DNA of 64,000 bases from Candidatus Altiarchaeales archaeon. Its GTDB lineage: Archaea; Altiarchaeota; Altiarchaeia; IMC4; SCGC-AAA252-I15. The DNA lies in NCBI GenBank assembly GCA_014727915.1, contig WJMO01000006.1:130137-194136 (forward strand), given 5' to 3'. Under the pieces are notes generated by a model, which saw only the letters and a program-made list of their open reading frames with translations, searched no databases and had not been told where the DNA came from. Both the position numbers and the translations under genes were made by a program. Below, piece by piece: positions 5,489 through 55,289 of this stretch (positions within the stretch are counted from its first letter, which is position 1; every line of letters begins with the position of its first letter).

Positions 5489-6349
5489 ATGAGGCGGGTG
5501 CCGTTCCTTGTGTTGTTGTTGGTTGCGGGTTCTGCTTCAGCCCAGCTTAACGGAAACTACAACATAGTCCTGGAGGAGAACGGCAACTCTCTCGTCACCC
5601 TTGTGATAAATGGGGTTGGCACCATAAACATCCCCCTGCCCTTGGATGTGCGAAGCCCCGCAGTCAGGGACGCTTTGTACGTGCGCGCGAGCAACGGAGT
5701 TGAGGTGAGCATAGACGCTGATGGCCAGTCCACTATCGTCTACAAGACCGCTCTGCTGACCTCAAGGGAGGGTGGCAGGTGGCGTTACATGATGGAACTG
5801 CCCCCATTGGAATCTGCCACGGTCGTTGTTTATGTGCCGGAGACCGCAGTCATAGCCGAGACCAGCCCGCCTGCGGCCATAAGCCATGTTGGGGAGTCCA
5901 AGAGCATGATCTGGAACCTCAAACCCGTTAATGACTCGGCCATAGTGGCCGAGTACTCGTTCTCCGGGTCCGCGGGACATATGACAGAAGAGGGTGGAGG
6001 CAGGGGGTTGGATCTGAAATATGTGCTGGCTGTGGTTTTAGCCCCCCTGGCCGCGACCGCTGTGATAATCTATCTTGTAAGGCGCAGGCAGAGGGGAGAG
6101 GGGTTGGTCCTAAGCGGTGGAAAGCAAAATGTGCTGAAGACGCTGACGGGGAACGAGATGAAGATAGTCAGCCTACTGCTCCAGAACATGGGGGGTATGC
6201 AGAGGAACAAGCTGGAGAAAACGTCGGGCATACCGAAGTCCAGCCTTGCCTCGTCCCTCTACAACCTCGAGCAGAGGAAGATCATAAGGGTCGACAAGAG
6301 TTATGCGGTCCACTATGTCGAGCTGACCGAGTGGTTCAAGAGCCTCTAA
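5489..6349 (+). CDS. Membrane-anchored winged-helix transcriptional regulator with extracytoplasmic domain
   Basis: Signal peptide, ~180-aa external domain, one TM, C-terminal wHTH (KSSLASSLYNLEQRKIIRVD); paralogs at 32398, 42876, 55295. Confidence 0.6.
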   Translation: MRRVPFLVLLLVAGSASAQLNGNYNIVLEENGNSLVTLVINGVGTINIPLPLDVRSPAVRDALYVRASNGVEVSIDADGQSTIVYKTALLTSREGGRWRYMMELPPLESATVVVYVPETAVIAETSPPAAISHVGESKSMIWNLKPVNDSAIVAEYSFSGSAGHMTEEGGGRGLDLKYVLAVVLAPLAATAVIIYLVRRRQRGEGLVLSGGKQNVLKTLTGNEMKIVSLLLQNMGGMQRNKLEKTSGIPKSSLASSLYNLEQRKIIRVDKSYAVHYVELTEWFKSL

Positions 6350-6842
6350 AAAAGGAAACGCCTGTTCCATACTGTTCGGTACTGTTCTATGCCGTCTTTA
6401 TAGCCTGTTCATGCGATTTAATCCTGTGCCAAACACCAGTCCATCACCAAAGGAGCCAACCACTCGGGGGGTGGTTGGGGACAGACTTTGGGGGGGTGAA
6501 GCAAAAAAGTCCGCACCTCCGATGAGAGGGGGTGCGGCAACCCTCAAAACCAAAAAAAAACTTGCGAGGTGAGGCAGATGAGCGCTTGCGTATCCAGCAT
6601 AGGACGCCAGTGGTATGTGGTGTCTGACGGGAGGGCGAAGGCCTTCAGGGACAGGTGGAATGCCATGTTCGAGGCTTGCATAATGAACAGGAGATGAAGG
6701 ACAGCATGAGATTGTGCGATTCCCTTTATAGGATGGGGGGCGGACGGGGAAGGCCGTGCAGGGGTGATAGGAATGCCGCGAGGATACAGGGGGAGATGCA
6801 CAGGATTATGTGCTCGATCATCTTCAAATCGTGATTTAATAG

Positions 6843-7919
6843 TTGAAGACGATTAGTGTTAAGATGCTTTACGGGATATCAACGGCGGTTAAGGCTTTGA
6901 AGTCTTCCTTTATCGTGTTGGCCGCGGCCGCGATCATGCTGGGTGTTCTGTGGGTGGCTTACCCAAACCTAAGGCCTGAGAGCCTGGATTTGAGGGTTAA
7001 CGAGGTTCTGACGGACCCTGGGAGCCTTGGGTGGGATGATGGTTTCATAGAGTTGCACAACACCGGAGATTCCAAGTTAAGCCTGGAGGGTTGGAGCGTG
7101 CGCACGGAGTCGGGTTCGATCAACCTCTTTGGGCATATCGAACCAGGAGGTTATAGGGCGGTCTATGGTGGTCTTTTCTCGGGGGATGTTGAGACTGTCT
7201 CTCTGGTGGACCCACGGGGCAGGGTGGCGGACAGGTACTCCCGTGTGGGGGGGTTGGAAGCTGTTTCAGTCGGCAGAAGCCCTGATGGTATGGGTTCGTG
7301 GACGGGTTTCGTCAACCCCACGCCAGGGGCTCCCAACACGGTGGTTGAGAAGACGCCGACCACGTTGGATACGCTTCCGAAGGTGGAGGTTCCCGATTGC
7401 ATGGAAGAGGAGTACGAGGCCGTCAGGGCTGACACGGCAGAGGAAGGTTTTGGGTCGGTTGATTTCTGCAGGGCATTCGAGGAGGAGATGAGTGATTTGA
7501 ACCCCTACGTCCTACGCAGGATAAACGAGATATCTGACGAGGAGATCAGGGAGGCTATTGCCTTAGGGGTGGCCGAACGGGCTGTCGCAAGAGAGCGGGA
7601 GGAAAGAATCGTGGGTTTGGTCGTGTCGGACGCCGAGCTCATGGACAGCATAAGAGGGCTGATAGGCGATGACCTCTACTCTCTGGGATTGGATGGGGAG
7701 CTCGCCAAGATGAACGGCAGGTTCAAGAGAATGCTGTTCGACATCATACTAAACGGTACCGGCGGCGAGAGAAGGGAGATGAGACTGCAGCTGAAGTACT
7801 ACCTTGAGTCCAGGGAGTCAGGAGGGAGAAAAACGCTGAAGTTCCGACCTGACGAGGTTAGGGTCATGTTATCCGATGGCAGGAGCCTGCAGGAGATTCT
7901 CGTCGAATTGGAGGTTTGA
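6843..7919 (+). CDS. Membrane-anchored lamin-tail-domain (LTD) protein
   Basis: N-terminal TM then LRVNEVLTDPG...GFIELHNTGDSKLSLEGWSV resembling the LTD signature; acidic C-terminal region. Confidence 0.5.
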   Translation: MKTISVKMLYGISTAVKALKSSFIVLAAAAIMLGVLWVAYPNLRPESLDLRVNEVLTDPGSLGWDDGFIELHNTGDSKLSLEGWSVRTESGSINLFGHIEPGGYRAVYGGLFSGDVETVSLVDPRGRVADRYSRVGGLEAVSVGRSPDGMGSWTGFVNPTPGAPNTVVEKTPTTLDTLPKVEVPDCMEEEYEAVRADTAEEGFGSVDFCRAFEEEMSDLNPYVLRRINEISDEEIREAIALGVAERAVAREREERIVGLVVSDAELMDSIRGLIGDDLYSLGLDGELAKMNGRFKRMLFDIILNGTGGERREMRLQLKYYLESRESGGRKTLKFRPDEVRVMLSDGRSLQEILVELEV

Positions 7920-26115: not shown

Positions 26116-26985
26116 ATGGTGGATGACAGTATCAGAGAAGACATCCTGAAAGCCCAGGAGAACGAGATAACGGAGTACCTCATCTACAGGAGACTTGCGG
26201 AAGCCACCAGCGACCGGAAAAACAGCGAATTGCTTAGGAGGATAGGCGAGGACGAGCTGGCCCACTATGAATTCTGGCGAGATCACAGCGGAGAGGACGT
26301 TAAACCCGACACGTTCAAGGTGTGGCGATACACCATGGCCGCTAAGCTGTTGGGTCTGACGTTCGCGGTGAAGCTGATGGAGCAGGGTGAGGAACGGGCG
26401 CAGATAGCATACGATGATATCTCAAAGCACATCCCAGAAGCTGCTAGGATAATCGAGGAGGAGGACGAGCATGAAGGGCAGCTGCTGGGCATGTTGGACG
26501 AGGAGAGGCTGAGGTACATGGGGTCTGTCGTGCTGGGACTGAACGACGCCCTCGTGGAGTTGACCGGCGCACTGGCAGGGTTCACACTCGCCTTCCAGGA
26601 CAGCAGACTAGTTGCTGTTACGGGTTTGATAATGGGTTTCGCGGCGTCGCTTTCCATGGCAGCCAGCGAGTACCTGGCAACCAAGTCGGAGGATGATGGC
26701 AAACACCCGGTTAAAGCCTCGGTGTACACCGGCTCCGCTTATGTGCTGACCGTGGCGCTTCTGATACTGCCCTACCTAGCATTAACCAACATCTACCTGA
26801 GCCTGGCGTTCACGTTGGTGAACGCAATCCTGGTGATCGCGTTCTTCACATTCTACATCTCAGTCGCGAAGGACCTAAGCTTCAGAGAGCGGTTCCTGGA
26901 GATGGCGGGCATCAGCATGGGAGTGGCCCTGCTCACCTTCATAATCGGGTACGCTGTAAGGTCCGTGTTCGGAGTCGACTTCTAA
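26116..26985 (+). CDS. VIT1/CCC1-family Fe/Mn transporter with N-terminal ferritin-like domain
   Basis: Ferritin-like (E...EDEHEGQ) N-terminus fused to VIT1-type TM domain. Confidence 0.7.
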
Positions 26986-29426
26986 AACTTTTTGATCTTC
27001 GCCCTCCGCAGCATGTTCGCGTTGGTCACCACCGTTATGGAGCTGGTCGCCATGGCAATCTCGGCTATCACCGGATGGGCCAAACCAAGCACCGCCGCCG
27101 GCAGGGCTATAAGGTTGTAGAAGAACGCCCAGAAGAGGTTCTGCTTGATCTTGGAGAACGTAGCCCGCGAAAGTTTAACTGCCGTGACAACCGACGACAG
27201 TTCCCCGCGTACGAGAGTCACGTCCGCTGCTTCGATCGCTATGTCCGTGCCGGTCCCGATGGCTATGCCGACGTCAGCTTGGGTAAGTGCTGGGGCGTCG
27301 TTTATGCCGTCGCCGACCATCGCTACAACACCGCTCTCCCTCTGCAACCTCTTTATCTCATCTACCTTGCCGTCTGGCAGGACCTCCGCCAGAACACGTT
27401 CTATGCCCGCCCTCTCAGCTATGGCCTCAGCGGTCCTCTGGTTGTCGCCGGTTATCATTGCAGGCTCCAGTCCGAGAGCCTTCAGCTCGGCTATGGCCTC
27501 CACCGAGTCCTCCTTCAATGTGTCGGCAACCGCGATAACACCAGCCAGTTCACCGTCCACCGCGACGAACATGGCGGTTTTAGCCTCTCCCTCGAGCCTC
27601 TGGACCTCTTCGACCGCAGGATAAACGTCAACGCCCGCATCGGACATGAGACGCCGGCTGCCAACGTGAACCACCTTCCCGCTGACCTCTGCCCGGACTC
27701 CCTTGCCGGACACGGACTCGAAGCCGGTGATGTCCCTGAGTTCCGCCGAATCCGCCCGGGCCTTCTCTACTATCGCCTCGCCCAGAGGATGCTCCGAGCC
27801 GGACTCGACACTGGCCGCAAGAGAAATCAAACCACCAGCCCCGCCGTTAAATGGTATCACATCGGTCACCTCGGGCTTTCCCTTGGTTATGGTGCCGGTC
27901 TTGTCGAATACTATGGATCTAACGTCCTTCAACGCCTGCATGGCAGCGCCATTCCTTATTAGTACTCCGTTCTCAGCCCCCATCCCACTGCCGACCATCA
28001 GCGCCGTGGGGGTCGCGAGGCCGAGCGCGCAAGGGCATGCGATCACAAAGACCGCCACAGTGGCGAATACCGCGAGAGAAACCGAATCGTGAGTCAAGTC
28101 AACCCAAGGAAGATAATCCTGGAGGAGGCCTGCGCCGACCTTCATTGTGCCGGGAAACAGCATCCAGGAGGAGAAAGTCAGCAACGCCACAACCACCACT
28201 ACCGGCACGAACACGCCAGTGACCCTGTCTGCGAACTCCTGTATCGGCACCTTCGTTCCCTGAGCCTCCTCGACCATGCGGATGACATTAGCAAGGAACG
28301 TGTCCTTACCCACCCTGGTGGCTCGGACCTTCAAAAGGCCGTTCTGGTTCACCGTCGAACCAATGACCTCATCGCCTGCGTTCTTGGCGACCGGCATGGA
28401 CTCTCCCGTGGCCATGCTCTCGTCCACGGAACTCGAACCGTCGAAGACCACCCCGTCAGTTGGTATCTTCTCCCCCGGGCGGACGACCATGACATCACCC
28501 ACAGCAACATCCTTCAGCTGAACCTCTTTTTCAACCCCGTCAACGATTACACGGGCCGTCTTAGCCTCCAGTTTCAATAGCTTCTTGATCGCCTGGGACG
28601 CCCTGCCCTTCGCCCTCGCCTCAATGTACCTGCCGGTGAGGTGGAAGCTCATTATCATCGCCGAAACACCAGCGTAGTTCAATATGGGAGTGAAAAGAAC
28701 CGCGACACCCGTGAGATACGAAGACAATGTCCCCATGGCTATGAGAACGTCCATGTTGCCGCTACCATGCCGGACCGAGTTCAAGGCGCTCTTGTAGGTG
28801 GAGGAGCCGGCCCACGCGAGGACGGGAGCCGCCAACACGACCATTCCAATGTTGAACACCCGCATGTTGGGCCATGCTACCCCAATGAACATCTCGGGGA
28901 TCATCCACACCATTATCGGGACCGTGAACGCCCATGCGATGAACGCCCTCCTCCGCGCCTCGGAGTATTCGCCATCCTCGTCCTCTTCGACTTCCTCGTC
29001 TTCCACTACCTCGAAGCCAGCCGCTTCAACAGCCGATTTAAGCTCATCATAGCCGACCTTGACAGGGTCATAGTTGACGGTCGCCCTTTCGCTCGCGAAG
29101 TTCACGACCGCATCCACACCATCCAGTTTTTTCAGAGCATCCTCGGTGTTCTTGGCGCAGCTAGCACAGTGCATCCCCTTGACCTTGAAGGTTAATTTTC
29201 GATTGTCAGCTTCCTCCACGTCGTAGCCCGCGTCTTCAACGCGCTTCCTGATATCTTCCCCTCCGACCTTGTCAGGGTCGAATTCGACATATGCCTTCTC
29301 AGAGGCGTAGTTGACATTGGCGGATGAGATGCCATCCAGCTTCTTCAACGCCTTCTCTATGTTAGCGGCGCAACCCGCACAGTGCATTCCCTTAACCTTG
29401 AACGACTTCTTCATCATCTTATCCAA
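26982..29426 (-). CDS. copA: Heavy-metal (copper-type) P1B-type ATPase with two N-terminal HMA domains
   Basis: GMHCAGCA and GMHCASCA metal-binding motifs, [22 protein letters not shown]. Confidence 0.9.
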
Positions 29427-29430
29427 CCCC

Positions 29431-30054
29431 TTAATAGAATCTGACCCCCTCTTTTAAATCGTCTTTCTCGATGGTCACGAAACCATCCTCCACAGCATGC
29501 GGAAGATATGCAGGCCAGCAACCTCCTCCACGGTTCATCCCGCCCAAATCGTCTATCCTGAAGTGCCTTCCGCAGTTCACGCATTTCACGTCGGAACCAA
29601 CTTGTGCGTATCCCTTGGATCCTCCGCAGACTTCGCAGGCGTCGAATGCGGTCCTAACCTCTCCGTCACTTCCCAAGACCACGAGATACCTTATCGTCTC
29701 GCCTCCGAAGTCAAAGCTGTATTTGCCGATCTGAGAGGATATCTCAGACAAGGGTATCCTGACCACACTATCATCAGAGCCGATAGCAGACTGGGAGTCA
29801 GACCCGGATACAACACTCCCAACAACATCAGAGACTGCATTTGACTCTTCCGCTCTAGGAGCGTCATTTCCCGACCCACCGGACAAAACCGCGAACGCGG
29901 CCGCCAGGACGACCAAGCCTAACAGCAGGTGTGCGCTGCCAAAACCTCCACCTCCATCAACCGATGCCTGCCCGCCGGATTCTTCTGACACTCTCACGCT
30001 ACCGCTCTTAGATGCTCGCCCTCTATTTTTCTCCCTTTTTCCCTTTCTTGCCAT
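29431..30054 (-). CDS. Membrane-anchored protein with CxxCG...CxxCG zinc-ribbon-like motif (DUF2318-like?)
   Basis: TM helix then DACEVCGG...CVNCGRHF; start probably ATG 30054. Confidence 0.45.
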
Positions 30055-30058
30055 TTTA

Positions 30059-30421
30059 TCATTCACCAGTAAACCCGGCACCTGGACCTATGCCACAGCT
30101 GCCCTCTTCGATGTCTCCCTTGCACTGGGGGCAGACTTCATCGAATCTTCTCTGGGCTATCATCTCATCGCACCTGCATATGCCGTCATCCCAAAGCCAA
30201 TGCCCCATGAAGCACATGTCACACACCGGGCTGATACAGCACTTGTACTCCCCGGACTCAACCTTCTCGGCTATCAGAGAGTTCACCTCATCCAAGGCAT
30301 TAGCCCGCCTAACCTGGTAGCTGTCAGGATAGGGCGGGTTCCCGCCTGAAGAGTATGCCAGAATGGATGATATGCCTATCACCGCCGCCAACGCGACAAG
30401 TCTCTTATCCACCGGCACCAC
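30059..30421 (-). CDS. Secreted/anchored Cys-rich putative metal-binding protein
   Basis: Signal/TM then CCISPVCDMC...CRCDE...CPQCKG...SCG (11 Cys in ~60 aa). Confidence 0.45.
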   Translation of the reverse strand: MVPVDKRLVALAAVIGISSILAYSSGGNPPYPDSYQVRRANALDEVNSLIAEKVESGEYKCCISPVCDMCFMGHWLWDDGICRCDEMIAQRRFDEVCPQCKGDIEEGSCGIGPGAGFTGE

Positions 30422-31073
30422 CCAGCTCTGAGCCTATCACTTCCCGGAATGCGCTCATCGGCTGGGCGCCGACTACCTTCTGCCCGCCTATGAAGAACGT
30501 CGGGGTCCCGGACACCCCCCGGCTCCTTCCTTCTGAGATATGGCTTTCCACCAGCGACTCCTTCGAGCTGGAGTCCAGGCACCTGTTGAACTGCAACCTA
30601 GCTAACCCAAGGTCAGAGGCTATGGACTTCAGGACATCCGAGTCTCCGACATCATAGCCTGAACCGTGCCTTTCGAAGAGCATGTCATGGTATTCCCAGA
30701 ACATGCCCTGGTCCCTGGCGCACTCAGCGGCCTCGGCAGCCTTGTCAGCGCCCCTGTGAAAGGAGAGGGGAAACTGCCTGAAAACAACCTCAATCCGGCC
30801 CTCATACTCTTCACGTATCTGGTTGACAGTGGTCGCAGCCCTCGCGCAGTAGGGGCATTTGAAGTCGCTGTAGACGACAACCTGCAAAAGACCCCCACCG
30901 CCTGAATCAGATGCAACCACGGCATTAGGGGGCGACTGAACGCCCTCAGCCGGGGGTGTTTCTGATGGCTGCAATAGCGCGTATGCAGCCACCGCGAACA
31001 ACACGGCGATGACGACGCTCAACGCCAGTATGTTATTCCCACCGCAGCAACCGTCTGATCCTTCCCGTTTCAT
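30405..31073 (-). CDS. DsbA-like thioredoxin-fold thiol:disulfide oxidoreductase, membrane-anchored
   Basis: CPYC active site; start probably ATG 31073 overlapping upstream stop. Confidence 0.7.
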   Translation of the reverse strand: MKREGSDGCCGGNNILALSVVIAVLFAVAAYALLQPSETPPAEGVQSPPNAVVASDSGGGGLLQVVVYSDFKCPYCARAATTVNQIREEYEGRIEVVFRQFPLSFHRGADKAAEAAECARDQGMFWEYHDMLFERHGSGYDVGDSDVLKSIASDLGLARLQFNRCLDSSSKESLVESHISEGRSRGVSGTPTFFIGGQKVVGAQPMSAFREVIGSELGGAGG

Positions 31074-32356
31074 CTTCCACCTCCGCATCCGCAACCGCAT
31101 CCGCCGCCACCGCATGAACCGCCACATGAGCCCCCACCTGGGACCTCGATGGTCTCAACCGCCTCTGCAACAGCAGCAGGGTCCTCGATGTTTATGTCTT
31201 CTTTTACCACGAAAACCCCGGGTATCATCCCCATCCAGCAGCTCCAGGGTATAGTACCAGAATCGTCTGGCGTGAACTCGATCGTCTGCAAACCGGGTTC
31301 TATGTCGAATTCCAAACCTAGCTTGGGCACCTGTATGGCGTTGTTACATCCGTTTATCTCCTTGCCGTCTATTACCCACTTGACTGGAACCCCCCTTTTC
31401 AGAACGAACTTGTCCGGCTTCCAACCGTACCGGTTCACCTCCATCTCTATTACCTGGTAGCCGCCTTCAAGCTCCAATGAGAGGTTGCCTGGGTCGTCTT
31501 CCATCGCCTGAGCCGACACAAGGATGGTGTTGAAGTCCGCTCCCGTGCCAGTCAACGCCAACCCCCGGTTCACCATAACCAGGCCCAACAGTATAACTAC
31601 TACCCCAGAGTAGCGAACTATCTTATGGGTCATCCTGGAGCTAACCACCGATGTCAAAACCCCGAAGCCGAGCAGGACAGGTAGTGTGCCCAACCCGAAC
31701 ACTGCAAGGTATAGAGCGCCGTGGACTGGACTGCCAGATGATGCTGCCAGTATGTACACCGCCTGCAGTGGGCCGCAGGCTATCATCAGCCCGTTCAACA
31801 ATCCGATAACCGCGGGGCTCCTGCTCTCATTCTCCTTTTCAGACCGCCACCTGTCTATGAACGAGGGCATTGTAAGCCTGAAGCGACGGAACCATTTCAT
31901 CATTCCCAGCATGTTGAACCCGAACAAAACCAGGAACAAACCCGCGAGTATGGCCGCCGCACCCCGCATGAACGGGGTGAAAGTGAAGAAAGACCCTATG
32001 AAACCGAATACGGCACCGAAGAACGCGTAGGACACTGTCTTGGACAATCCATACGTTAGGTGGGAGCCGTAGTTGATACGCCCGTCCGCGGCCTCCTTGG
32101 CAGAGTAGCTTACCACAAAACCCCCACACATGGCAACACAGTGGAAGCCGGTCAGCAGGCCTATTATGAACAGCAACATTATTGAAGTGTCACTGTCCAA
32201 TGAGGGCATGTACACGCCAAAGCTCTCATGAAGCATATAGTATCCCCCGGCGAGGATGGCCAACACACCCAAAACCACGGAGACGTTCTTCAAGTCCGCA
32301 GTTGAAAACGCTATCCTTCTGTTGATATTAGAATTTTTCATGTTTATCCAGAGCAA
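31070..32356 (-). CDS. DsbD_2/CcdA-like transmembrane domain fused to cupredoxin-like domain with Gly/Cys-rich tail
   Basis: TM Cys pair GFHCVAMCGGF; C-terminal beta-rich domain; tail GGGSCGGSCGGGGCGCGCGGGR. Confidence 0.55.
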   Translation of the reverse strand: MLWINMKNSNINRRIAFSTADLKNVSVVLGVLAILAGGYYMLHESFGVYMPSLDSDTSIMLLFIIGLLTGFHCVAMCGGFVVSYSAKEAADGRINYGSHLTYGLSKTVSYAFFGAVFGFIGSFFTFTPFMRGAAAILAGLFLVLFGFNMLGMMKWFRRFRLTMPSFIDRWRSEKENESRSPAVIGLLNGLMIACGPLQAVYILAASSGSPVHGALYLAVFGLGTLPVLLGFGVLTSVVSSRMTHKIVRYSGVVVILLGLVMVNRGLALTGTGADFNTILVSAQAMEDDPGNLSLELEGGYQVIEMEVNRYGWKPDKFVLKRGVPVKWVIDGKEINGCNNAIQVPKLGLEFDIEPGLQTIEFTPDDSGTIPWSCWMGMIPGVFVVKEDINIEDPAAVAEAVETIEVPGGGSCGGSCGGGGCGCGCGGGR

Positions 32357-32397
32357 CTAGGATGAAACAATATAAGCCAACATAGGTGAAACTGGTT

Positions 32398-32871
32398 TCA
32401 TTTAAGGACCACTATGTTTGTCAGGCCTCTCCTACGCCTCTCTAGCAGGTTCTTGGACTCCAGCCGGTCCAGGTTCCGGGTTACCTTAACCTTTGACAGC
32501 CCGGTCTTCTCGGATATCTCACTCTGGAAGATTGTGCCTCCAGAGTCTGAGATCAGCTGGTAGACTGTCTTCTCATCCCCATCCAGGCTTCCGAGGTTCT
32601 CCAGCCACTTCTCCCTGCCTGAAGGCTCCTGATCCAATCTGCCGCCCTTCAAAGCCAGGTATATGCCGATGAAGAACAGTATCACGACACCAGCCAATCC
32701 GCCATAGAAGACGGGAGGGACCTTGAAATGGATCATCTCGCAGCTTTCCCCGCAGGTGCAGGACTGGGTGCTCATATCGGCGAGAGTGTCTAGGAGAACT
32801 GACAATAACGCCACCAGAAAGACCGCCAATAGTATCAGCACAATCCCTACTTCCCGCAATCCGGCCCTCAT
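32398..32871 (-). CDS. Membrane-anchored wHTH regulator with CxCxxxC motif
   Basis: TM - STQSCTCGESCEM - TM - C-terminal wHTH (KTGLSKVKVTRNLDRLESKNLLERRR). Confidence 0.55.
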   Translation of the reverse strand: MRAGLREVGIVLILLAVFLVALLSVLLDTLADMSTQSCTCGESCEMIHFKVPPVFYGGLAGVVILFFIGIYLALKGGRLDQEPSGREKWLENLGSLDGDEKTVYQLISDSGGTIFQSEISEKTGLSKVKVTRNLDRLESKNLLERRRRGLTNIVVLK

Positions 32872-32877
32872 CTTAAG

Positions 32878-33726
32878 CTAAACCCATTCCTCCCTTAGCT
32901 TTTCTCCTTTTATGCTTATTACCGCCGATTTCACAGGCACCTTCCGCTGAGCCCTTTCAACAGCCTCTTTCGCCATCTGCAGCAGCCCAGTGCAGCATGG
33001 GACTTCCATTGTCACCACCGTGAGCGTGTTTATCCCGGCGTCATCAATGAGTGAAACGAGCTTCTCCACGTACGTCTGCTGTTCGCTGTCCAGTTTCGGG
33101 CAGGCTATCGCCAGCCGCCTTCCCTTCAAGTACTCACCGTGGAAGCGCCCGTAAGAGTATGCCGCACAATCAGCCGACAACAGCACGTCAGCGCCCTTGA
33201 AGTAAGGTGCCAAAGGCGATACCAGGTGCATTTGGACAGGCCACTGCCTCAGCTGCGAGGAAACCTCACCAACCACTTTACCCACTACCTCCGGGTCATG
33301 GGAGAAGTCCATAGTCCTGGCTCCCGGGCAGCCCCCCGCAGACCCTGAGCAAGGCGTCTCAGGTGCTGCGGTTTCCGGGACCTCCAAACCCTTATCCTTC
33401 AGGAATCCGACAGCCTCGTTGTAGTATCCCATCTCCCCATGATCTCTCAGATGTTCAAGGTGGGCTTTTATCGTGTTATAGCCCTGCTTGACGATGTTCT
33501 CCATGACCCTGCGCTCATCGTAGGGTTCCGCCTCCCGCTCGACTATGTCTATCGCGCCTTCGGGACAGTGTCCCATGCAGGCTCCGAGCCCGTCGCAGAA
33601 GAGGTCGCTGACCAGCCGGGCCTTGCCGTCTATCATCTGCAACGCTCCCTCGGGGCAGTTGGGTATGCACAAGCCGCACCCTGTGCACTTGTCCTCGTCT
33701 ATCTCGATTATGCTACGCTTTACCAT
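32878..33726 (-). CDS. 4Fe-4S dicluster-domain protein with additional Cys-rich C-terminal domain
   Basis: CTGCGLCIPNCP and CDGLGACMGHCP ferredoxin motifs; C-terminal CAAY...CPKL...PCCTG. Confidence 0.65.
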   Translation of the reverse strand: MVKRSIIEIDEDKCTGCGLCIPNCPEGALQMIDGKARLVSDLFCDGLGACMGHCPEGAIDIVEREAEPYDERRVMENIVKQGYNTIKAHLEHLRDHGEMGYYNEAVGFLKDKGLEVPETAAPETPCSGSAGGCPGARTMDFSHDPEVVGKVVGEVSSQLRQWPVQMHLVSPLAPYFKGADVLLSADCAAYSYGRFHGEYLKGRRLAIACPKLDSEQQTYVEKLVSLIDDAGINTLTVVTMEVPCCTGLLQMAKEAVERAQRKVPVKSAVISIKGEKLREEWV

Positions 33727-33737
33727 GTTGTATCCTC

Positions 33738-34085
33738 TCAGCCGAACACGAAGGCTGATAGTGTGGGCAGCAGCAGGTACAAGACCATCAACGTCAGAGA
33801 GACATAGGTGACTATGCTAACAGCCACCATCGTCCTATGGGCTTTGACGTCGTTCAAGGTGCATGTGCCGCCGCACTGCCTTTTGATCTTGAAGTAGAGG
33901 GACAAGAGCATGAAAACCGTGCCCGCCGCTATGAAGAAGAGCTTATACCTTGGAAGCTTCAATGCTGCGGTCATGCTCCCAGCCCCCAATGTCCCGAATA
34001 TCATGACCAGTATCAGGGGCAGCGTGCAGCAGCTCGACGCTATGATCGTGGCCTTCACCCCCGTCCAGAATCCCTTCAATCCCAT
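33738..34085 (-). CDS. MerT-like heavy-metal transport membrane protein
   Basis: 115 aa, 3 TM; vicinal Cys pair in TM1 (ASSCCTLPL) and loop Cys pair (CGGTC). Confidence 0.5.
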   Translation of the reverse strand: MGLKGFWTGVKATIIASSCCTLPLILVMIFGTLGAGSMTAALKLPRYKLFFIAAGTVFMLLSLYFKIKRQCGGTCTLNDVKAHRTMVAVSIVTYVSLTLMVLYLLLPTLSAFVFG

Positions 34086-41569: not shown

Positions 41570-41797
41570 CTATAGCATCTCCCCTATCTCTATTGTGTCG
41601 TCTTCAGGTATGAACGGGGGCATAACCTCGTCCACGTCCACATCGTCCAATGACGTGTTATCTGCGACGGTGCCGGGCTGCACTCTCGTATCCCCCTGGG
41701 GGCTGGAGTCCTCCGACATGCCGGCGTCCGTATGCGTGGACTGCATGCATCCTATGGCAAACACCACCAGCACTGCGAGGGCGACTAATGCTCTCAT
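41570..41797 (-). CDS. Small acidic lipoprotein, hypothetical
   Basis: Signal peptide with GC lipobox; stop overlaps upstream gene start. Confidence 0.35.
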   Translation of the reverse strand: MRALVALAVLVVFAIGCMQSTHTDAGMSEDSSPQGDTRVQPGTVADNTSLDDVDVDEVMPPFIPEDDTIEIGEML

Positions 41798-42783
41798 TTT
41801 CCATTGCCTCCGCCGCCGTTATTGCCCTGTGCTCCTAAACCGTTATTGCCCGGTCCTCCACCGGCGGGGTTTTCCTGGCCTGGGCCTTTCTTATCCTGTT
41901 GTTTCTGGATTATCTCCTGGCGCTTTTCCATGCGGTCCTGGAGCTTGCCCATCTGGCGGTCGAGGTTCTCCACCCTCTTCTGCAGCCGCTCCTGCGCGCC
42001 ATCCGACAGGTTCATGGCCTGGGCCTTCTCCAACCTCTTCTCAAGCCTGGCGTTAGCTCTTTCCATCTGGTTCAACGCAACCCTGTCGGCCACAGCCTTC
42101 TTGAAGACGCTCCCCTTGACATGCTCTTCCTTCATCGCAGACCATGCGTTCCTCTTCTGGGTATTGTTCATTGCCTTAAATGCGTTCTTCAATGACTTTT
42201 GTACCTGGCTCTTGTTCGCTTCGCCGTTCTCCACATCCTCGATAAGGCCAGGGTCGTCTATGCCGGCCGCGTCCATCATGTTCTGCAGCTGCTCCGCATT
42301 ATACGCGTTCCGGGCATTCCGGAACCTCTGCTTCCACTCCTGCCCGGTGCCGTTCAACTCAGCCCTAAATGACTTCCTCAAAGCCGCCGCCTCAGGACCG
42401 GAGATCAAAGTCCTCGCGGATTCCCGGAACTCCTTGGTCAAAGCCACAGACTCCTGTTTCATGTCAACAAAAGCCTTAGCCGCCGCCTCCCCGACCGCGG
42501 GCTCCGTGGACCCGACCTCGTCCAATAGCACGTTCATCTCGGCCAGAATCGCCTCCAGGCCGGACGAGTCACTCCCGTTCGCCTCAACATACCCTATTAT
42601 CTCCTCACCCCATGCGATGTTCTTCTCAAGCGCCCGCTCAAGCTGGAGCAGACGCACCTCAGAACCCCAGGTGGACCTGAAAGCCAGTGTCTCATTCTCC
42701 ACCTCTCCACCAGCATCCTCTGCGAATACAGGGTTCGCGTAAGCCAACACCACCAACAAGCTCAAAATCAATGCTTTTTTCAT
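41794..42783 (-). CDS. Secreted coiled-coil protein with Gly/Asn-rich tail
   Basis: Signal peptide; long helical K/E/Q-rich region; C-terminal GPGNNGLGAQGNNGGGGNGK. Confidence 0.5.
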   Translation of the reverse strand: MKKALILSLLVVLAYANPVFAEDAGGEVENETLAFRSTWGSEVRLLQLERALEKNIAWGEEIIGYVEANGSDSSGLEAILAEMNVLLDEVGSTEPAVGEAAAKAFVDMKQESVALTKEFRESARTLISGPEAAALRKSFRAELNGTGQEWKQRFRNARNAYNAEQLQNMMDAAGIDDPGLIEDVENGEANKSQVQKSLKNAFKAMNNTQKRNAWSAMKEEHVKGSVFKKAVADRVALNQMERANARLEKRLEKAQAMNLSDGAQERLQKRVENLDRQMGKLQDRMEKRQEIIQKQQDKKGPGQENPAGGGPGNNGLGAQGNNGGGGNGK

Positions 42784-42875
42784 ATTCCATTCACCTCACA
42801 ACATTTGTTGGTTGCTTACATCTAAGGTGGAACAGCATAAGAGCCTACGCCGGAAAACGGCGGAAAACCGCGGAA

Positions 42876-43559
42876 CTAGTTCAACTTCACCATGGCGCTC
42901 ATCCCGACCCGCCTCTTCTCGACAACGCCCATGCCCTCGAGTGTGTCTATGTTCCGTGACACGCTGGACTTGGGCAGGTTCAGCTGCTCACATATCTCCG
43001 CCTGGTTCACGGGAGCATTCCTCTCCCTGAGGAACTCGACTATCATCCTCTGCCTGTCGGTGAGCATACGATCGTCAAAGCCAGCACCTGCCTTGGAAGG
43101 CCTCCACCATAGATACATCACCGCAGAGGCGGCAGCCAACAAGGCTATGACGGCAGCATACAGTGTGCTGTTGTCAGGTGAACTTTCACGGCCGATGGTG
43201 TACTGGACCAGGACATTGAAGGGCTCATCCTCCCCAACCCCCGACACCTTAACCCTCCCATCCTCGGAGGATATCCTGAAGCCCCGGGGGGACATGGCAT
43301 AGTTGACTTCCGCCCCTTCGGGCAGCTTGACAGAGTACACGTACTCGGTGAAATCACCGTCCAAGCTGATGTTAAGCAGCCAGTAGCCGCCGCGCTTGAA
43401 CGTGTACTGGTCGTAGACCCCGTCAGCCAGCAGGGGGTGGTTGCTGGTGCCAGATATTGTAGCGGCTCCAGACCCGCTGACATCAAATGATACGTCAGCG
43501 TAGTAGGCCTCGGCCGAGGCGAAACCAACCAATAAGATGAAAAGCAAAACCCGCTTCAT
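42876..43559 (-). CDS. Membrane-anchored wHTH regulator with extracytoplasmic domain (paralog family)
   Basis: Signal peptide (start probably MKRVLLF at 43559), external beta-rich domain, TM, C-terminal wHTH. Confidence 0.55.
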   Translation of the reverse strand: MKRVLLFILLVGFASAEAYYADVSFDVSGSGAATISGTSNHPLLADGVYDQYTFKRGGYWLLNISLDGDFTEYVYSVKLPEGAEVNYAMSPRGFRISSEDGRVKVSGVGEDEPFNVLVQYTIGRESSPDNSTLYAAVIALLAAASAVMYLWWRPSKAGAGFDDRMLTDRQRMIVEFLRERNAPVNQAEICEQLNLPKSSVSRNIDTLEGMGVVEKRRVGMSAMVKLN

Positions 43560-51007: not shown

Positions 51008-51685
51008 TCAGACTATCTTCCCGTCGACTATCTGTATCTTCTGCCTGGCGTTCTTGGCTATCTTCGAGTCGTGGGTGACTATCACCAAGGTCTTGCCCTC
51101 TTCCTCGTTCAACCTCTTCAGCAGGCCCATGATTGTCTTCCCGGTATTCTGGTCCAGGTTCCCGGTGGGCTCGTCGGCGAGTATAATCTGGGGATCGTTA
51201 GCCAGGCTTCTAGCTACCGCGACCCTCTGCTGCTGTCCGCCGCTCAGCTCCGACGGCCTGTTGCCCGCCTTGTCGGAGAGGCCGACCAGCTCGATTATCT
51301 CCTCTACTTTACTATTCCGCACGGGTTTTGGTGTGCCCTTGAATCTCATGGGGAGTTCGATGTTCTCGGCTGCGCTCATCGTCGGGATGAGGTTGAACTG
51401 CTGGAAAACGAACCCCAGCTTCTCCCTCCTCAACCTGGCCTTCTGAACTCCGTTCAACCCGCTTATGCCAACGTCCTCGATGTAGACCTCCCCCCGTGTG
51501 GGGGTGTCCAGGCAGCTTATCAGATTCAGCAAGGTGGATTTGCCAGAGCCTGAAGGTCCGATTATGCTAGCGAACTCCCCCAACTCAATCGTCAAGTCCA
51601 CTCCGTTCAATGCCCTGCATTCGTTAGGCTCGCCCTCGTTGTATATCTTGAACAAACCCACACAGCGTATTTCCCCGTTACTCAT
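51008..51685 (-). CDS. ABC transporter ATP-binding protein (MacB/LolD-like)
   Basis: Walker A GPSGSGKST, signature LSGGQQQR, Walker B ILADEPTGNLD. Confidence 0.9.
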   Translation of the reverse strand: MSNGEIRCVGLFKIYNEGEPNECRALNGVDLTIELGEFASIIGPSGSGKSTLLNLISCLDTPTRGEVYIEDVGISGLNGVQKARLRREKLGFVFQQFNLIPTMSAAENIELPMRFKGTPKPVRNSKVEEIIELVGLSDKAGNRPSELSGGQQQRVAVARSLANDPQIILADEPTGNLDQNTGKTIMGLLKRLNEEEGKTLVIVTHDSKIAKNARQKIQIVDGKIV

Positions 51686-52847
51686 AGCGCAACACCTCTA
51701 TAGGATCGAGCCTCGAAGCAGCCCATGCAGGATATAAGCCTGCCCCCATCCCTAGTATGAGGGAGAATGCGAATCCTATGGCGATGAGCTCAGGGCTTAA
51801 TATGGGGGTGAATGACGTGTGGGATTTCACCAGTTCACTGGCTCCATATCCGAGCATGAACCCGATGAACCCGCCTATGAGGCTCAACACCGCGGACTCC
51901 TCCAATACCTGCATGAGTATGTTGGTTGTGGTGGCGCCGATGGCCTTCATCACCCCAATCTCCCGCCTGCGTTCCATGACGCTCATGATCATCGTGTTCA
52001 TTATGCCAATGCCACCCACGATAATGGACACAGCGCCGATGCCGTAGACTGCCATCGTTATGGTGCCCAACGTGCTCTCCAAGCTCCGGACCAACGTAAT
52101 AGCAGAGAAAGCCCGGACCGTGTCGAACATGTCGCTTATCTCCTGTTGGATAGGTTCTACATTCTCGACCTCGTCCACCTTCACCTTTAACTGGGTTATC
52201 TTGTCGTCGTCTTCCAAATCCTGCATGGTTGAAAGGGGGACGAAAGCCGCCTCGTCAATTGTTGAGTCCCCGGTCTCCTCCAGGATGCCCACGACTTCGA
52301 AGTGGAAGCTATCGGTGGTGTCGTTCTCGACCCGCTGGTACTCTATCTCGTCGCCGACGTTGTACAGTTGGTTGTAGGCGGTCGTGGATCCCAGGAGCAC
52401 CACATACTGGAAGTCGTCTGATACATCAAGTTTACGACCGTCATCTGCGACTATGTTCTCGCCTATCAGGTAGTCCTGGTCTTCAGGGTTCAAGGCCGTG
52501 AACTCCAGGGTGCTGGATGAGCCGCCCATCATCCGACCCATCATCCCCCCAAAGCCTCTGTGGCCCCCGCGGCTTATCCGGTATTCGCCGATTGCCACAA
52601 CGTCCGTTACGCCTGTTATGTCCCGTATGTCCTGTATCATGTCCTCGGTTATACCGTCCTCGCTCTCGAAGTCGCGGACGTCGATGACGGCCGCCATGTC
52701 ACCGAAGGAATCCTGTATCTGCTTGTTCAACCCCTCACCTATGGCTCCGAGGGTGAGTATCAAACCTATGCCCATGGCTATGCCCAGCATGGTCAATATG
52801 CTGCGGGACTTCTGCCTGAAGACGTTCTTAAACGCGATGTCAAGCAT
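51678..52847 (-). CDS. ABC transporter permease, FtsX/MacB-type
   Basis: N-terminal TM, large extracytoplasmic domain, C-terminal 3-TM FtsX-like bundle; start probably ATG 52847. Confidence 0.8.
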   Translation of the reverse strand: MLDIAFKNVFRQKSRSILTMLGIAMGIGLILTLGAIGEGLNKQIQDSFGDMAAVIDVRDFESEDGITEDMIQDIRDITGVTDVVAIGEYRISRGGHRGFGGMMGRMMGGSSSTLEFTALNPEDQDYLIGENIVADDGRKLDVSDDFQYVVLLGSTTAYNQLYNVGDEIEYQRVENDTTDSFHFEVVGILEETGDSTIDEAAFVPLSTMQDLEDDDKITQLKVKVDEVENVEPIQQEISDMFDTVRAFSAITLVRSLESTLGTITMAVYGIGAVSIIVGGIGIMNTMIMSVMERRREIGVMKAIGATTTNILMQVLEESAVLSLIGGFIGFMLGYGASELVKSHTSFTPILSPELIAIGFAFSLILGMGAGLYPAWAASRLDPIEVLRYE

Positions 52848-52848
52848 C

Positions 52849-54531: not shown

Positions 54532-54586
54532 ATTTTTTCACCTTATTATCCTGAATATCAAGAATACACATCCTTAAATATAATAC

Positions 54587-54636
54587 TGAAACAGGGGATA
54601 TCCCAGCGTGAAACACCTGTAGCAGAATGTGAAACA
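54587..54636 (+). promoter_or_regulatory. Triple TGAAACA direct-repeat array (R1), upstream of surface-protein/ABC operon
   Basis: TGAAACA at 54587, 54609, 54630 (spacing 22, 21); TATA-like ttaaatataat adjacent. Confidence 0.55.
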
Positions 54637-54701
54637 TGGGTTTGGGAGGCTTCCCGGGTCGGATTAGAGTGGGAAGCCTCCGTTGTGGTGGCTGCAGTGA
54701 G

Positions 54702-55239: not shown

Positions 55240-55289
55240 TGAAACAGGGCATAAGTTTGGATGAAACAGTTGTGGCAGAAGATGAAACA
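55240..55289 (+). promoter_or_regulatory. Triple TGAAACA direct-repeat array (R2)
   Basis: TGAAACA at 55240, 55262, 55283 (spacing 22, 21), 30-80 nt upstream of GTG 55211. Confidence 0.55.

What the first reader, a model, noticed from the sequence alone, without database searches (positions are those of the whole stretch)
5489..6349. Family of four membrane-anchored wHTH proteins scattered through the window
ORFs at 5489, 32398, 42876 and 55295 share a C-terminal wHTH block (S.V.R.L..LE..G.V/I...) behind one or two TM helices; two also carry a ~180-aa secreted sensor-like domain. Each sits beside envelope or secreted-protein genes. Four copies in 64 kb is a striking expansion.
Basis: seen in the sequence. 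Interest (0 to 1): 0.6.

Follow-up and report, generated by a model that had tools for sequence, protein, structure and literature searches.

The report
Membrane-anchored archaeal regulators with adjacent operators
The four genes are real, anciently diverged relatives encoding DNA-binding proteins anchored in the cell membrane of an uncultivated archaeon, and each sits directly in front of its own short repeated DNA motif and a conserved set of envelope or metal-resistance genes that it most likely switches on or off.

Summary
Four ORFs in a Candidatus Altiarchaeales window share a C-terminal winged-helix domain placed just after the last transmembrane helix. Three pass the Pfam DUF7343 threshold; the fourth is linked by profile comparison. 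They are not a local expansion. They are old paralogs (about 25-36% identity), and each has its own orthologs in Altiarchaeota or DPANN archaea.

Each subfamily has its own sensor module, partner genes and DNA repeat motif.
- **Sensors:** A and C share a homologous secreted beta-sandwich. B has a Cys-rich loop between its two helices. D has a strongly conserved two-helix membrane module and is always preceded by a SHOCT gene.
- **DNA motifs:** The repeat array begins at or just after the regulator's stop codon and flanks a TATA-like box.
  - B and D use GTTTCA. D has three 50-bp triple repeats in the window against 0 expected. B has the palindrome TGAAAC-NN-GTTTCA, enriched at P of about 1e-24 across 80 loci.
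  - C uses TGTTCCG (46 of 60 loci, P of about 1e-37).
  - A uses CTGTTC.
- **Copper link:** B-type genes lead into CopA and DsbD-cupredoxin genes in about half of 80 genomes.

These are most likely one-component transmembrane transcription regulators acting on the adjacent promoter. DNA binding and ligands are inferred, not shown.

The parts
5489..6349 (+). A-type regulator, 286 aa. Signal peptide (cleavage after ASA), Ost1-like beta-sandwich ectodomain (about residues 19-160), TM helix 176-201, wHTH 208-280, and a conserved ELTEWFKSL tail.
   Evidence: No Pfam or NCBIfam model reaches threshold.
6362..6412 (+). A-type repeat element. CTGTTC occurs four times (spacings 10, 10 and 23 bp), with TTTATAG before the last repeat. 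It starts 13 nt after the A stop codon.
   Evidence: tandem CTGTTC: 2 overlapping matches, 0.01 expected. A similar element follows the A ortholog in L003.
6843..7919 (+). Lamin-tail-domain (LTD) membrane protein. It is a recurrent neighbour of A-type genes and a candidate target.
   Evidence: Pfam LTD. Orthologs lie within 5 kb of A orthologs in L084 and L085 (E 3e-90 and 2e-59), with a partial match in L003.
32398..32871 (-). B-type regulator, 157 aa. TM1, an outward-facing loop SCTCGESCEMIH (C38, C40, C44, M46, H48), TM2, and wHTH 89-157.
32363..32400 (-). B-type operator and promoter. The palindrome TGAAAC-CA-GTTTCA (32400-32387) includes the B stop codon. It is followed by the TATA-like TTATAT (32375-32370) and by TGTTTCA (32369-32363).
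   Evidence: unique in the window. The same architecture is enriched downstream of B-type genes in 80 loci.
26982..32356 (-). Genes behind the B operator: DsbD_2-cupredoxin fusion (31070-32356, probable ATG at 32341), DsbA-like (30405-31127), unknown 120 aa, FtrD-like (29431-30081), and a CopA-type P1B ATPase with HMA domains (26982-29426).
   Evidence: Pfam. Co-occurrence with B-type genes in 80 genomes.
32878..34085 (-). Genes upstream of B in the same tightly spaced run: a MerT-like membrane protein (33738-34085) and a 282-aa 4Fe-4S protein (32878-33726).
   Evidence: Gaps between genes are 6-11 nt. The Fer4 protein is conserved in L004 and L005.
42876..43559 (-). C-type regulator, 227 aa from ATG 43559 (the longest ORF starts at TTG 43607). 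Signal peptide, about 110-aa beta ectodomain with invariant YYAD, NHP, T-K and W motifs, TM helix, wHTH.
42828..42876 (-). C-type operator and promoter. GTTCCG overlaps the stop codon and is followed by TTTTCCG twice. Then come the TATA-like CTTATG (42841-42836) and TGTTCCA (42834-42828).
   Evidence: TGTTCCG is present downstream of 46 of 60 C-type genes against 13 of 369 controls.
41570..42783 (-). C-type partner genes: a secreted helical 329-aa protein (41794-42783) and a 75-aa lipoprotein-like protein (41570-41797).
   Evidence: A homolog of the 329-aa protein lies directly downstream in 31 of 48 loci.
55295..55705 (-). D-type regulator, 136 aa. Conserved MEVSE N-terminus, two TM helices joined by a loop of about 10 aa, and wHTH 67-136.
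55709..55987 (-). SHOCT-domain single-TM protein (92 aa). It is the invariant upstream partner of D, 3 nt away.
56034..56083 (-). D element 1: TGTTTCA-N14-TGTTTCA-N15-TGTTTCA, upstream of the SHOCT-D operon.
55240..55289 (-). D element 2: the same triple repeat. It starts 5 nt after the D stop codon and ends 28 nt before the start of the secreted 169-aa gene.
54587..54636 (-). D element 3: the same triple repeat, upstream of the CARDB-FtsX-ABC genes.
51008..55211 (-). D-type candidate regulon: a secreted His/Met-rich 169-aa protein (54702-55211), a CARDB/NEW3 protein (52849-54531), a MacB_PCD/FtsX permease (51678-52898) and an ABC ATPase (51008-51685).
   Evidence: Pfam. The cluster is conserved in L001, L003 and L087.

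Best explanation
The four genes encode ancient paralogs of one archaeal family of one-component transmembrane transcription regulators (Pfam DUF7343 type). The order of parts is: an extracytoplasmic or intramembrane sensor, then a transmembrane helix, then a short linker, then a single cytoplasmic winged-helix domain.

Proposed mechanism:
- Each regulator stays in the membrane.
- It binds an array of 3-5 short half-sites that begins at or within about 15 nt of its own stop codon.
- The half-sites are spaced by one or two helical turns, so they lie on one face of the DNA. They bracket the TATA box of the next gene's promoter.
- A signal received outside the cytoplasm therefore controls the adjacent genes.

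Specificity is partitioned between the paralogs:
- B and D have recognition helix SKVKV[ST]R and use GTTTCA.
- A and C have recognition helix PKSS[LV][AS][SR] and use TGTTC(C).

Proposed roles:
- B senses copper and/or thiol-oxidative stress through an outward-facing Cys/His/Met loop. It controls a DsbD-cupredoxin / DsbA / FtrD / CopA operon.
- D works with a SHOCT membrane partner and controls three promoters: its own operon, a secreted His/Met-rich protein, and a CARDB plus MacB-type ABC exporter.
- C controls a secreted helical protein plus a small lipoprotein.
- A probably controls a lamin-tail-domain membrane protein.

Shown here: homology, topology, fold, conserved partner genes, and conserved subfamily-specific repeat elements at promoters.

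Inferred, not shown: that these proteins bind those repeats, whether they repress or activate, and what the ligands are.
For: Family and fold:
- establish the sequence family.
- AF2 models have pLDDT 86.6 and 90.5.

D-type:
- The 50-bp triple TGTTTCA element occurs 3 times in the window, against 0 in 100 shuffles. All three copies are in intergenic regions of the D cluster.
- Eleven elements from 5 loci align without gaps and have 22 invariant columns. No RNA structure is predicted.
- The module of His/Met-rich protein, SHOCT, D-type gene and GTTTCA repeats recurs in a Woesearchaeota genome (L023).
- SHOCT is adjacent in 5 of 5 independent contexts, with gaps of 2-6 nt.
- The membrane module is as conserved as the wHTH, at 0.79-0.82 against 0.83.

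B-type:
- It has 910 representative relatives.
- In the loop, C38 is invariant and C44 is at least 90% conserved. The commonest motif is C-x-H-G-x2-C-P-M-W.
- A CopA-type ATPase is present in 37 of 80 loci and is co-directional in all 37. Among loci with at least 4 kb on both sides the figure is 24 of 43. None occurs in 117 kb of control loci. The binomial P is 1.6e-37 at an assumed 2.5% background.
- Downstream of the stop codon, ACTAGTTT is present in 33 of 80 loci against 51 of 1635 controls (P 4e-25). A GTTTCA pair is present downstream in 27 of 80 loci against 1 of 80 upstream.
- Loci with the operator lead into metal or thiol genes in 22 of 41 cases, against 9 of 39 without it.

C-type:
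- TGTTCCG is present downstream in 46 of 60 loci against 13 of 369 controls (P 2e-37).
- A homolog of the secreted 329-aa protein lies directly downstream in 31 of 48 loci.

A-type:
- Tandem CTGTTC occurs only after the A stop codon in the window.
- A similar element follows the L003 ortholog.

Unbiased scan: the window holds 5 TGTT(T)C clusters against 0.3 expected, and 4 of them abut A or D.

The half-site co-varies with the recognition helix.
Against: - No experiment or expression data supports the model. Binding of these proteins to these repeats is guilt by association.
- The A-type element rests on only two loci. A itself fails the Pfam threshold (15 bits).
- B and D share the same half-site within one genome. 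Discrimination would therefore have to come from the arrangement of sites (palindrome against direct triple repeat), or there is cross-talk.
- Only 41 of 80 B-type loci show the operator, and about half show CopA nearby. Many contigs are short.
- In D element 2 there is little room for a promoter between the last repeat and the start codon.
- A single wHTH without MarR-type dimerisation helices might bind DNA weakly on its own.
- The B loop cysteines could form a structural disulfide rather than a metal site.
Confidence: 0.78

Rival explanations
1. The proteins are membrane-tethered precursors. On a signal, a protease cuts the linker or TM helix (regulated proteolysis). The freed soluble wHTH is then the active transcription factor at the same operators.
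For: The linker between the TM helix and the wHTH is the least conserved and least confidently modelled part. Its conservation is 0.61 in D, and pLDDT dips at A residues 202-205 and in C's linker. Released-domain mechanisms are known for other membrane-bound regulators, such as CadC (PMC11484849, listed).
Against: - No protease gene is conserved next to any subfamily.
- An operator that touches the regulator's own stop codon, with half-sites on one DNA face, fits action from the membrane well.
- A lone 65-aa wHTH without a dimerisation module would lose the avidity that membrane clustering provides.
Confidence: 0.12
2. The repeat elements are bound by some other, unidentified factor, or act as RNA or terminator elements. 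The membrane wHTH proteins would then have a non-transcriptional role, for example protein-protein interaction or anchoring DNA to the membrane.
For: - Binding has not been shown.
- All elements lie on the coding strand, just after a stop codon, where terminators or processing sites also occur.
- Winged helices can mediate protein contacts. The top sequence hits to solved structures include Z-alpha domains.
Against: - The half-site changes with the subfamily and with the recognition helix: GTTTCA for SKVKVSR and TGTTCC for PKSSVSR.
- D element 1 is not preceded by any co-directional gene.
- The elements bracket TATA-like boxes. They show no consensus RNA structure and no oligo-T terminator.
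- No other DNA-binding gene is conserved in these loci.
Confidence: 0.07
3. The C-terminal similarity is only generic helix-turn-helix resemblance, and the four ORFs are unrelated membrane proteins.
For: - A fails every curated threshold.
- BLASTP finds no A-B or A-C match.
- For C, DUF7343 (37.0 bits) barely exceeds MarR_2 (36.2 bits).
Against: - Leave-one-out recovery of every member.
- Profile-profile E-values of 4.5e-13 to 2.5e-21.
- Identical domain order and position in all four proteins.
- The A and C ectodomains are also homologous.
- All four share the same arrangement of regulator gene, operator, TATA box and half-site.
Confidence: 0.02

Closest known systems
Bacterial transmembrane transcription regulators ToxR / TcpP / CadC (with co-components ToxS / TcpH)
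   Same: - They are one-component regulators that act from the membrane.
- A wHTH is linked through one TM helix to an extracytoplasmic sensor.
- They bind several sites in tandem about 10 bp apart, and also in inverted-repeat mode, near the promoter. This brings the DNA to the membrane (PMC10629549).
- A small membrane co-component is encoded next door, as SHOCT is next to D.
   Different: - The domain order is reversed. ToxR and CadC run from an N-terminal cytoplasmic OmpR-type wHTH through the TM helix to a C-terminal sensor. Here the order is sensor, TM helix, then a C-terminal MarR/ArsR-like wHTH. A and C also have cleavable signal peptides.
- There is no sequence relationship.
- The setting is an archaeal TATA/TBP promoter.
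- The operator directly abuts the regulator's own stop codon.
ArnR / ArnR1 of Sulfolobus (membrane-bound archaeal one-component regulators)
   Same: They are archaeal membrane-bound HTH regulators that bind cis boxes at a target promoter (PMC6396743).
   Different: - ArnR has an N-terminal HTH, then a HAMP-like and a sensing domain in the cytoplasm, then two C-terminal TM helices.
- It has no extracytoplasmic sensor.
- It belongs to a different lineage (Crenarchaeota) and has a different target (the archaellum).
Pfam DUF7343 (PF24034) and automatic annotations such as 'MarR family transcriptional regulator' or 'uncharacterized membrane protein'
   Same: B, C and D score above the gathering threshold. 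Their homologs carry this domain in precomputed annotation.
   Different: - The family has no assigned function.
- No paper in the searchable library mentions it.
- A-type proteins are not captured by it.
- No NCBIfam model covers any of the four.
Copper regulators: archaeal CopR/CopT (Lrp + TRASH), bacterial CueR/CsoR and periplasm-sensing CusS/CopS
   Same: B-type genes sit next to CopA-type ATPase genes, as CopR does (PMC7830388). Like CusS/CopS, the putative metal site faces the outside of the cytoplasmic membrane.
   Different: - B has no TRASH, Lrp/RAM, MerR or histidine-kinase domain.
- Sensor and DNA-binding domain are in one 160-aa membrane protein.
- The ligand-binding candidate is a loop of about 25 aa with C-x-H-G-x2-C-P-M-W, or C-x-C-G-x2-C-x-M-x-H in Altiarchaeota.
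BceRS-BceAB type modules (a sensor kinase with a minimal extracellular loop that relies on a MacB/FtsX-type ABC transporter). This comparison is from my own knowledge and was not checked in a paper.
   Same: D has two TM helices joined by a loop of about 10 aa. It is encoded with a MacB_PCD/FtsX permease and an ABC ATPase whose promoter carries the D-type element.
   Different: - D is one component, with no kinase or response regulator.
- The invariant partner is a SHOCT protein, not the transporter, which is absent in L088.
- The system is archaeal.
Ost1 / ribophorin I luminal domain (structural analogue of the A and C ectodomains)
   Same: - Both are type I membrane proteins with an N-terminal beta-sandwich followed by a TM helix.
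- The C model's best Foldseek hits are 6s7o_E (E 4.6e-5), 8b6l_O and 6c26_1.
   Different: - There is no detectable sequence similarity.
- TM-scores are low (0.13-0.32).
- M1-aminopeptidase N-domains and lpg2210 score similarly, so this may be a generic fold resemblance.
- Ost1 has no DNA-binding domain.

Membership tests
Pfam DUF7343 (PF24034) | The whole-protein HMM score reaches the gathering threshold of 27.6 bits. | tested here: met
   B 47.2, C 37.0 and D 56.9 bits. A scores 15.2 bits and fails. A is linked to the family only by leave-one-out HMM (E 1.7e-7) and by hhalign (E about 5e-13).
Transmembrane transcription regulators (TTRs, as defined by Demey et al. 2023) | At least one predicted transmembrane region. 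| tested here: met
   Hydropathy gives 1-2 segments per protein with a mean of 1.95 or more. AF2 shows long helices at A 176-201 and C 131-152.
Transmembrane transcription regulators (TTRs, as defined by Demey et al. 2023) | A predicted DNA-binding domain in the same polypeptide. | tested here: met
   [not shown]
Transmembrane transcription regulators (TTRs, as defined by Demey et al. 2023) | The protein regulates transcription while located in the membrane. | not testable with these tools
   Supported only indirectly, by subfamily-specific repeat arrays at adjacent promoters.
ToxR/CadC-type regulators | An N-terminal cytoplasmic OmpR/PhoB-type wHTH (Trans_reg_C), then a TM helix, then a C-terminal periplasmic sensor. 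| tested here: not met
   There is no Trans_reg_C hit. The wHTH is C-terminal and MarR/ArsR-like.
MarR family | A soluble protein of about 140-150 aa in which the wHTH is flanked by N- and C-terminal helices that form the dimer interface. | tested here: not met
   - Structural alignments to MarR proteins cover only 60-87 residues.
- No helices follow the wing, except a 5-residue helix in A.
- MarR_2 scores are at or near threshold for B, C and D, and absent for A.
ArsR/SmtB metalloregulators | A match to the NCBIfam HTH_metalloreg model at 55 bits or more, with cytoplasmic metal sites. | tested here: not met
   Scores are 19.5-29.7 bits against a cutoff of 55.
Archaeal CopR/CopT copper regulators | An Lrp/AsnC-type HTH plus a C-terminal TRASH metal-binding domain. 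| tested here: not met
   B has no TRASH or AsnC_trans_reg hit. The family architecture is taken from PMC7830388.
ArnR-type archaeal membrane regulators | An N-terminal HTH, then HAMP-like and sensing domains, then two C-terminal TM helices. | tested here: not met
   The domain order here is the opposite, and there is no HAMP hit. The ArnR architecture is taken from PMC6396743. No direct sequence comparison was run.

The most novel reading that the evidence does not exclude
DUF7343-type proteins could form a regulatory system found throughout DPANN and Altiarchaeota. In it, a membrane-tethered transcription factor is encoded immediately upstream of its own operator.

The proposed consequence is as follows. 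Co-translational membrane insertion of the nascent regulator would bring the adjacent promoter to the membrane. There, arrays of tethered winged helices could bind one face of the DNA. This would solve the problem of how a membrane-bound factor finds its target.

Within this system, the roughly 160-aa B-type proteins would be the so far unidentified copper sensors of DPANN and Altiarchaeota. They would detect Cu(I), or copper-driven thiol oxidation, outside the cytoplasm through a C-x-H-G-x2-C-P-M-W loop. They would directly gate CopA, CopZ and DsbD-cupredoxin promoters.
Probability: 0.4. Interest if true: 0.75.

Novelty: new variant of a known kind. Interest (0 to 1): 0.6.

Why it matters
Almost nothing is known about gene regulation in DPANN and Altiarchaeota, which are largely uncultivated. 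This analysis turns four 'hypothetical' or 'MarR-like' genes into testable regulator-operator-target triplets.

- **What is now defined:** half-sites (GTTTCA, TGTTCCG, CTGTTC), promoter architecture, and candidate regulons. The regulons are copper/thiol defence, a MacB-type exporter with a His/Met-rich secreted protein, and secreted envelope proteins.
- **Copper sensing:** it offers a candidate for the missing copper sensor in lineages that lack the described CopR/TRASH-type regulators next to copA.
- **A general design:** it suggests that membrane-bound transcription factors place their operator at their own stop codon, with same-face half-site arrays around the TATA box. This bears on the open question of how such factors find DNA.
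- **Practical use:** the motifs can be used at once for regulon prediction in metagenomes, and for EMSA or DAP-seq with small, easily expressed domains.

Tried and rejected
1. An exact-protein look-up of D in the contig index found nothing. Orthologs were used for context instead.
2. The search for related loci with B alone found no relatives in genomes. The 61-sequence alignment A4 succeeded.
3. The afdb50 fold library was unavailable. The PDB libraries were used instead.
4. BLASTP between the A and C ectodomains was not significant (E 0.44). Only the profile-profile comparison showed homology.
5. The first operator search looked upstream of B-type genes. It found no palindrome in at least 6 loci, and no k-mer was significant after correction for 593 tests. 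The signal turned out to be downstream of the stop codon.
6. Literature searches for 'DUF7343' and 'COG2512' returned nothing relevant. A search linking copA, DPANN and transmembrane regulators found no description of B-type proteins.
7. The supplements of the TTR census contain no Altiarchaeota, so no lineage baseline for 'expansion' could be drawn. The number of paralogs in the whole source genome could not be obtained with the tools.
8. Sequence searches of the secreted 329-aa and 169-aa partner proteins against solved structures, Pfam and NCBIfam gave no meaningful hit.
9. An RNA-element reading of the D repeats was rejected, because RNAalifold predicts no pairs.
10. The 136/140-aa ORF before CARDB in L003 was considered as a second D copy. 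It was rejected (E 0.48). It is a homolog of the secreted 169-aa protein.
11. The idea of a conserved four-gene 'cluster' was rejected, because the spacing is not conserved.
Full report
**1. The observation**

- A: 5489-6349 (+), 286 aa.
- B: 32398-32871 (-), 157 aa.
- C: 42876-43607 (-), 243 aa by the longest ORF. Homologs indicate the ATG at 43559, giving 227 aa.
- D: 55295-55705 (-), 136 aa.

Hydropathy and AlphaFold2 models (mean pLDDT 86.6 and 90.5) give the topology.
- A and C have a cleavable signal peptide, an all-beta ectodomain, one TM helix and a C-terminal winged helix.
- B and D have two TM helices and a C-terminal winged helix.

Basic residues follow the last TM helix. This, together with the need for the wHTH to reach DNA, puts the ectodomains and the B and D loops outside the cytoplasm. 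That orientation is an inference.

The window is archaeal (Pelota, Nre and KaiC). It comes from a Candidatus Altiarchaeales MAG, since identical proteins carry the locus tags GF416_04480 and GF416_04810.

**2. A real family rather than generic HTH**

- Pfam DUF7343 is the best hit for B, C and D and lies above threshold. A is below every threshold.
- A leave-one-out HMM recovers each omitted member (E 1.7e-7 to 5.8e-15). No other window ORF scores better than E 0.4.
- Subfamily profiles match each other at E 4.5e-13 to 2.5e-21.
- The family profile scores at most 24 bits against any solved wHTH.
- No NCBIfam model reaches its cutoff.
- The A and C ectodomains are homologous to each other (hhalign probability 96%, E 5e-9). 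A and C are therefore full-length paralogs.
- Structurally the ectodomains resemble the luminal domain of Ost1/ribophorin I and similar beta-sandwiches.

**3. Not a local expansion**

Each copy has its own orthologs.
- D has more than 120 orthologs, all 136-138 aa and 64-81% identical. All the named ones are from Altiarchaeota.
- A has about 20 orthologs without any Pfam annotation.
- C has orthologs in Altiarchaeota and Woesearchaeota.
- B has 910 representative clusters and at least 576 genomic loci. These span Aenigm-, Woese-, Pace-, Micr-, Nano-, Iain- and Nanohalarchaeota and Altiarchaeota, with a few euryarchaeal MAGs.

The spacing seen in the window is not conserved.

**4. Partner genes**

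*B-type.* B sits in a tightly spaced run of co-directional genes: MerT-like, 4Fe-4S protein, B, DsbD_2-cupredoxin, DsbA-like, an unknown gene, FtrD-like, and a CopA-type ATPase. The following counts come from 80 loci taken from different species.
- A full-length CopA-type ATPase lies within 3.3 kb in 37 loci, and is on the same strand in all 37.
- Among loci with at least 4 kb of flank on both sides, the figure is 24 of 43.
- 52 of 80 loci have CopA, DsbD-cupredoxin, DsbA or FtrD.
- None of these genes occurs in 117 kb of control loci.

The loop between the two TM helices carries an invariant Cys and a second Cys conserved in at least 90% of sequences.
- The commonest motif is C-x-[HEM]-G-x2-C-[PAS]-M-[WY], found in 41 of 80 loci.
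- The window has the Altiarchaeota variant C-x-C-G-x2-C-x-M-x-H.
- Cys, His and Met are the classical Cu(I) ligands. That statement is established bioinorganic knowledge and was not tested here.

*D-type.*
- D is always preceded, at a gap of 2-6 nt, by a single-TM SHOCT protein.
- It is usually followed by a secreted His/Met-rich protein, a CARDB/NEW3 protein and a MacB-type ABC exporter.
- Its N-terminus and TM helices are as conserved as its wHTH. This points to specific intramembrane contacts.

*C-type.* C is followed by a secreted helical protein and a small lipoprotein-like protein.

*A-type.* A lamin-tail-domain membrane protein lies nearby.

**5. Operators**

This is the main new result.

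*D-type.*
- Upstream of SHOCT-D lies a 50-bp element, TGTTTCA-N14-TGTTTCA-N15-TGTTTCA.
- The same element occurs three times in the window against 0 expected. Each copy precedes a transcription unit of the D cluster.
- Eleven such elements from five loci align without gaps. No RNA structure is predicted.
- A Woesearchaeota locus has the same module with the same repeats.

*B-type.* My first search upstream of the genes was negative. The 150 nt downstream of the stop codon are strongly enriched for the following architecture.
- A palindrome TGAAAC-TA-GTTTCA, which often uses the stop codon TGA.
- A TATA-like box.
- A third GTTTCA.
- Enrichment: ACTAGTTT is present in 33 of 80 loci against 51 of 1635 controls (P 4e-25). 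GTTTCA pairs occur downstream in 27 of 80 loci against 1 of 80 upstream.

The window has exactly this architecture at 32400-32363, and it is unique in the window.

*C-type.* Sixty metagenomic loci show TGTTCCG direct repeats at 10-11-bp spacing starting at the stop codon. A TATA-like box and then TGTTCCA follow. TGTTCCG is present in 46 of 60 loci against 13 of 369 controls (P 2e-37). The window element is at 42876-42828.

*A-type.* A is followed by four CTGTTC repeats with TTTATAG before the last one. A similar element follows the L003 ortholog.

*Pattern across the family.*
- An unbiased scan for clusters of TGTT(T)C finds 5 in the window against 0.3 expected. Four of them abut A or D.
- The half-site tracks the recognition helix: SKVKV[ST]R in B and D with GTTTCA, and PKSS[LV][AS][SR] in A and C with TGTTC(C).

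**6. Mechanism**

The best explanation is a family of one-component transmembrane transcription regulators.
- Several membrane-tethered winged helices bind same-face half-sites that bracket the TATA box of the gene immediately downstream of the regulator.
- A half-site between the TATA box and the start site is the position typical of archaeal repressors. This is from my own knowledge, and activation is not excluded.
- ToxR is the closest functional analogue. It binds in tandem about 10 bp apart and in inverted-repeat mode, and it brings DNA to the membrane. Its domain order is the reverse, and its wHTH is of a different type.
- ArnR, the studied archaeal membrane regulator, also has the opposite domain order.

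B is proposed as a sensor of copper or thiol stress outside the cytoplasm. The known archaeal copper regulators are cytoplasmic Lrp-TRASH proteins.

D, with its minimal loop, probably senses through SHOCT and/or the MacB-type transporter. This is analogous to Bce-type modules, a comparison from my own knowledge.

Placing the operator at the regulator's stop codon suggests that co-translational insertion positions the target promoter at the membrane. This is speculation.

**7. Limits**

- No binding, expression or ligand data exist.
- The A-type operator rests on two loci.
- About half of the B-type loci lack a recognisable operator or a CopA neighbour. Short contigs explain part of this.
- The number of paralogs in the source genome is unknown.

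**8. Verdict**

The general class is known (transmembrane one-component regulators; Pfam DUF7343). Three things appear undescribed in the searchable literature: the reversed architecture, the subfamily-specific operators abutting the stop codon, and the CopA-linked Cys-loop subfamily.

Noticed in passing
window 3647-3793 (-): Rfam finds a 147-nt tRNA (58 bits, full model), presumably intron-containing. ARAGORN reported no tRNA in the window. The 120-aa ORF at 3491-3853 that overlaps it is therefore probably spurious.
   Followed up: partly
window 6413-6842 (+): About 430 nt with G-rich runs lie between the A-type repeat element and the annotated start of the LTD gene. The region has no convincing ORF and no Rfam match. 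It could be a long 5' leader, a small unannotated gene or an ncRNA transcribed from the A-controlled promoter.
   Followed up: no
window 31070-32356 (-), C-terminus of the DsbD_2-cupredoxin protein: The fusion protein ends in a Gly/Cys tail, GGGSCGGSCGGGGCGCGCGGGR. In other genomes the homologous protein also gives weak hits to the HMA-containing CopA query. It looks like a metal-handling thiol-reductase fusion.
   Followed up: partly
window 54702-55211 (-); L023 5442-5798 (-): The secreted 169-aa protein behind D element 2 is rich in His, Met and Glu, has repeated LGLTEDxT motifs, and ends in C-x4-C...GGGCPF. Its Woesearchaeota counterpart ends in GGCPMH. It may be a periplasmic metal-binding or stress protein. 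NCBIfam gives only a sub-threshold resemblance to Spy.
   Followed up: partly
L023 4680-6447 (Candidatus Woesearchaeota DPANNHV_H1.bin.22): A D-type module (His/Met-rich protein, SHOCT, D) and a B-type module (B, a small HMA-like ORF (CopZ-like; labelled CopA by the crude ORF scan), DsbA, FtrD, CopA ATPase) are divergently adjacent. They share one intergenic region that carries 4-5 GTTTCA repeats. This suggests the two subfamilies may be functionally linked.
   Followed up: partly
window 43720-46314 (+): An 864-aa secreted protein is transcribed divergently from C. It has a peptidase C39/C10-like domain and Asp-rich repeats resembling calcium-binding repeats. The shared intergenic region holds a 9-bp-arm AT-rich inverted repeat (AAATTATTT...AAATAATTT) but no TGTTCC repeats.
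   Followed up: no
window 8962-9028 (+): The fifth cluster of TGTTC motifs (spacings 27 and 33 nt) lies inside a minus-strand ORF (8955-9254) and is not next to any family member. It is probably chance but remains unexplained.
   Followed up: no
L003 8420-9969: In GCA_043800255.1 an ABC-2 type transporter and an encapsulated-ferritin-like gene are inserted between the D gene and its usual downstream cluster. An extra triple-repeat element precedes a 155-aa gene of unknown function. The D regulon therefore varies between genomes.
   Followed up: partly
[not shown]
   Followed up: partly
L084 8303-10587: Next to an A-type ortholog lies a radical-SAM/SPASM, PqqD and ScmC-like gene set with small ORFs. 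This looks like a RiPP maturation cluster. It is absent from the window.
   Followed up: no
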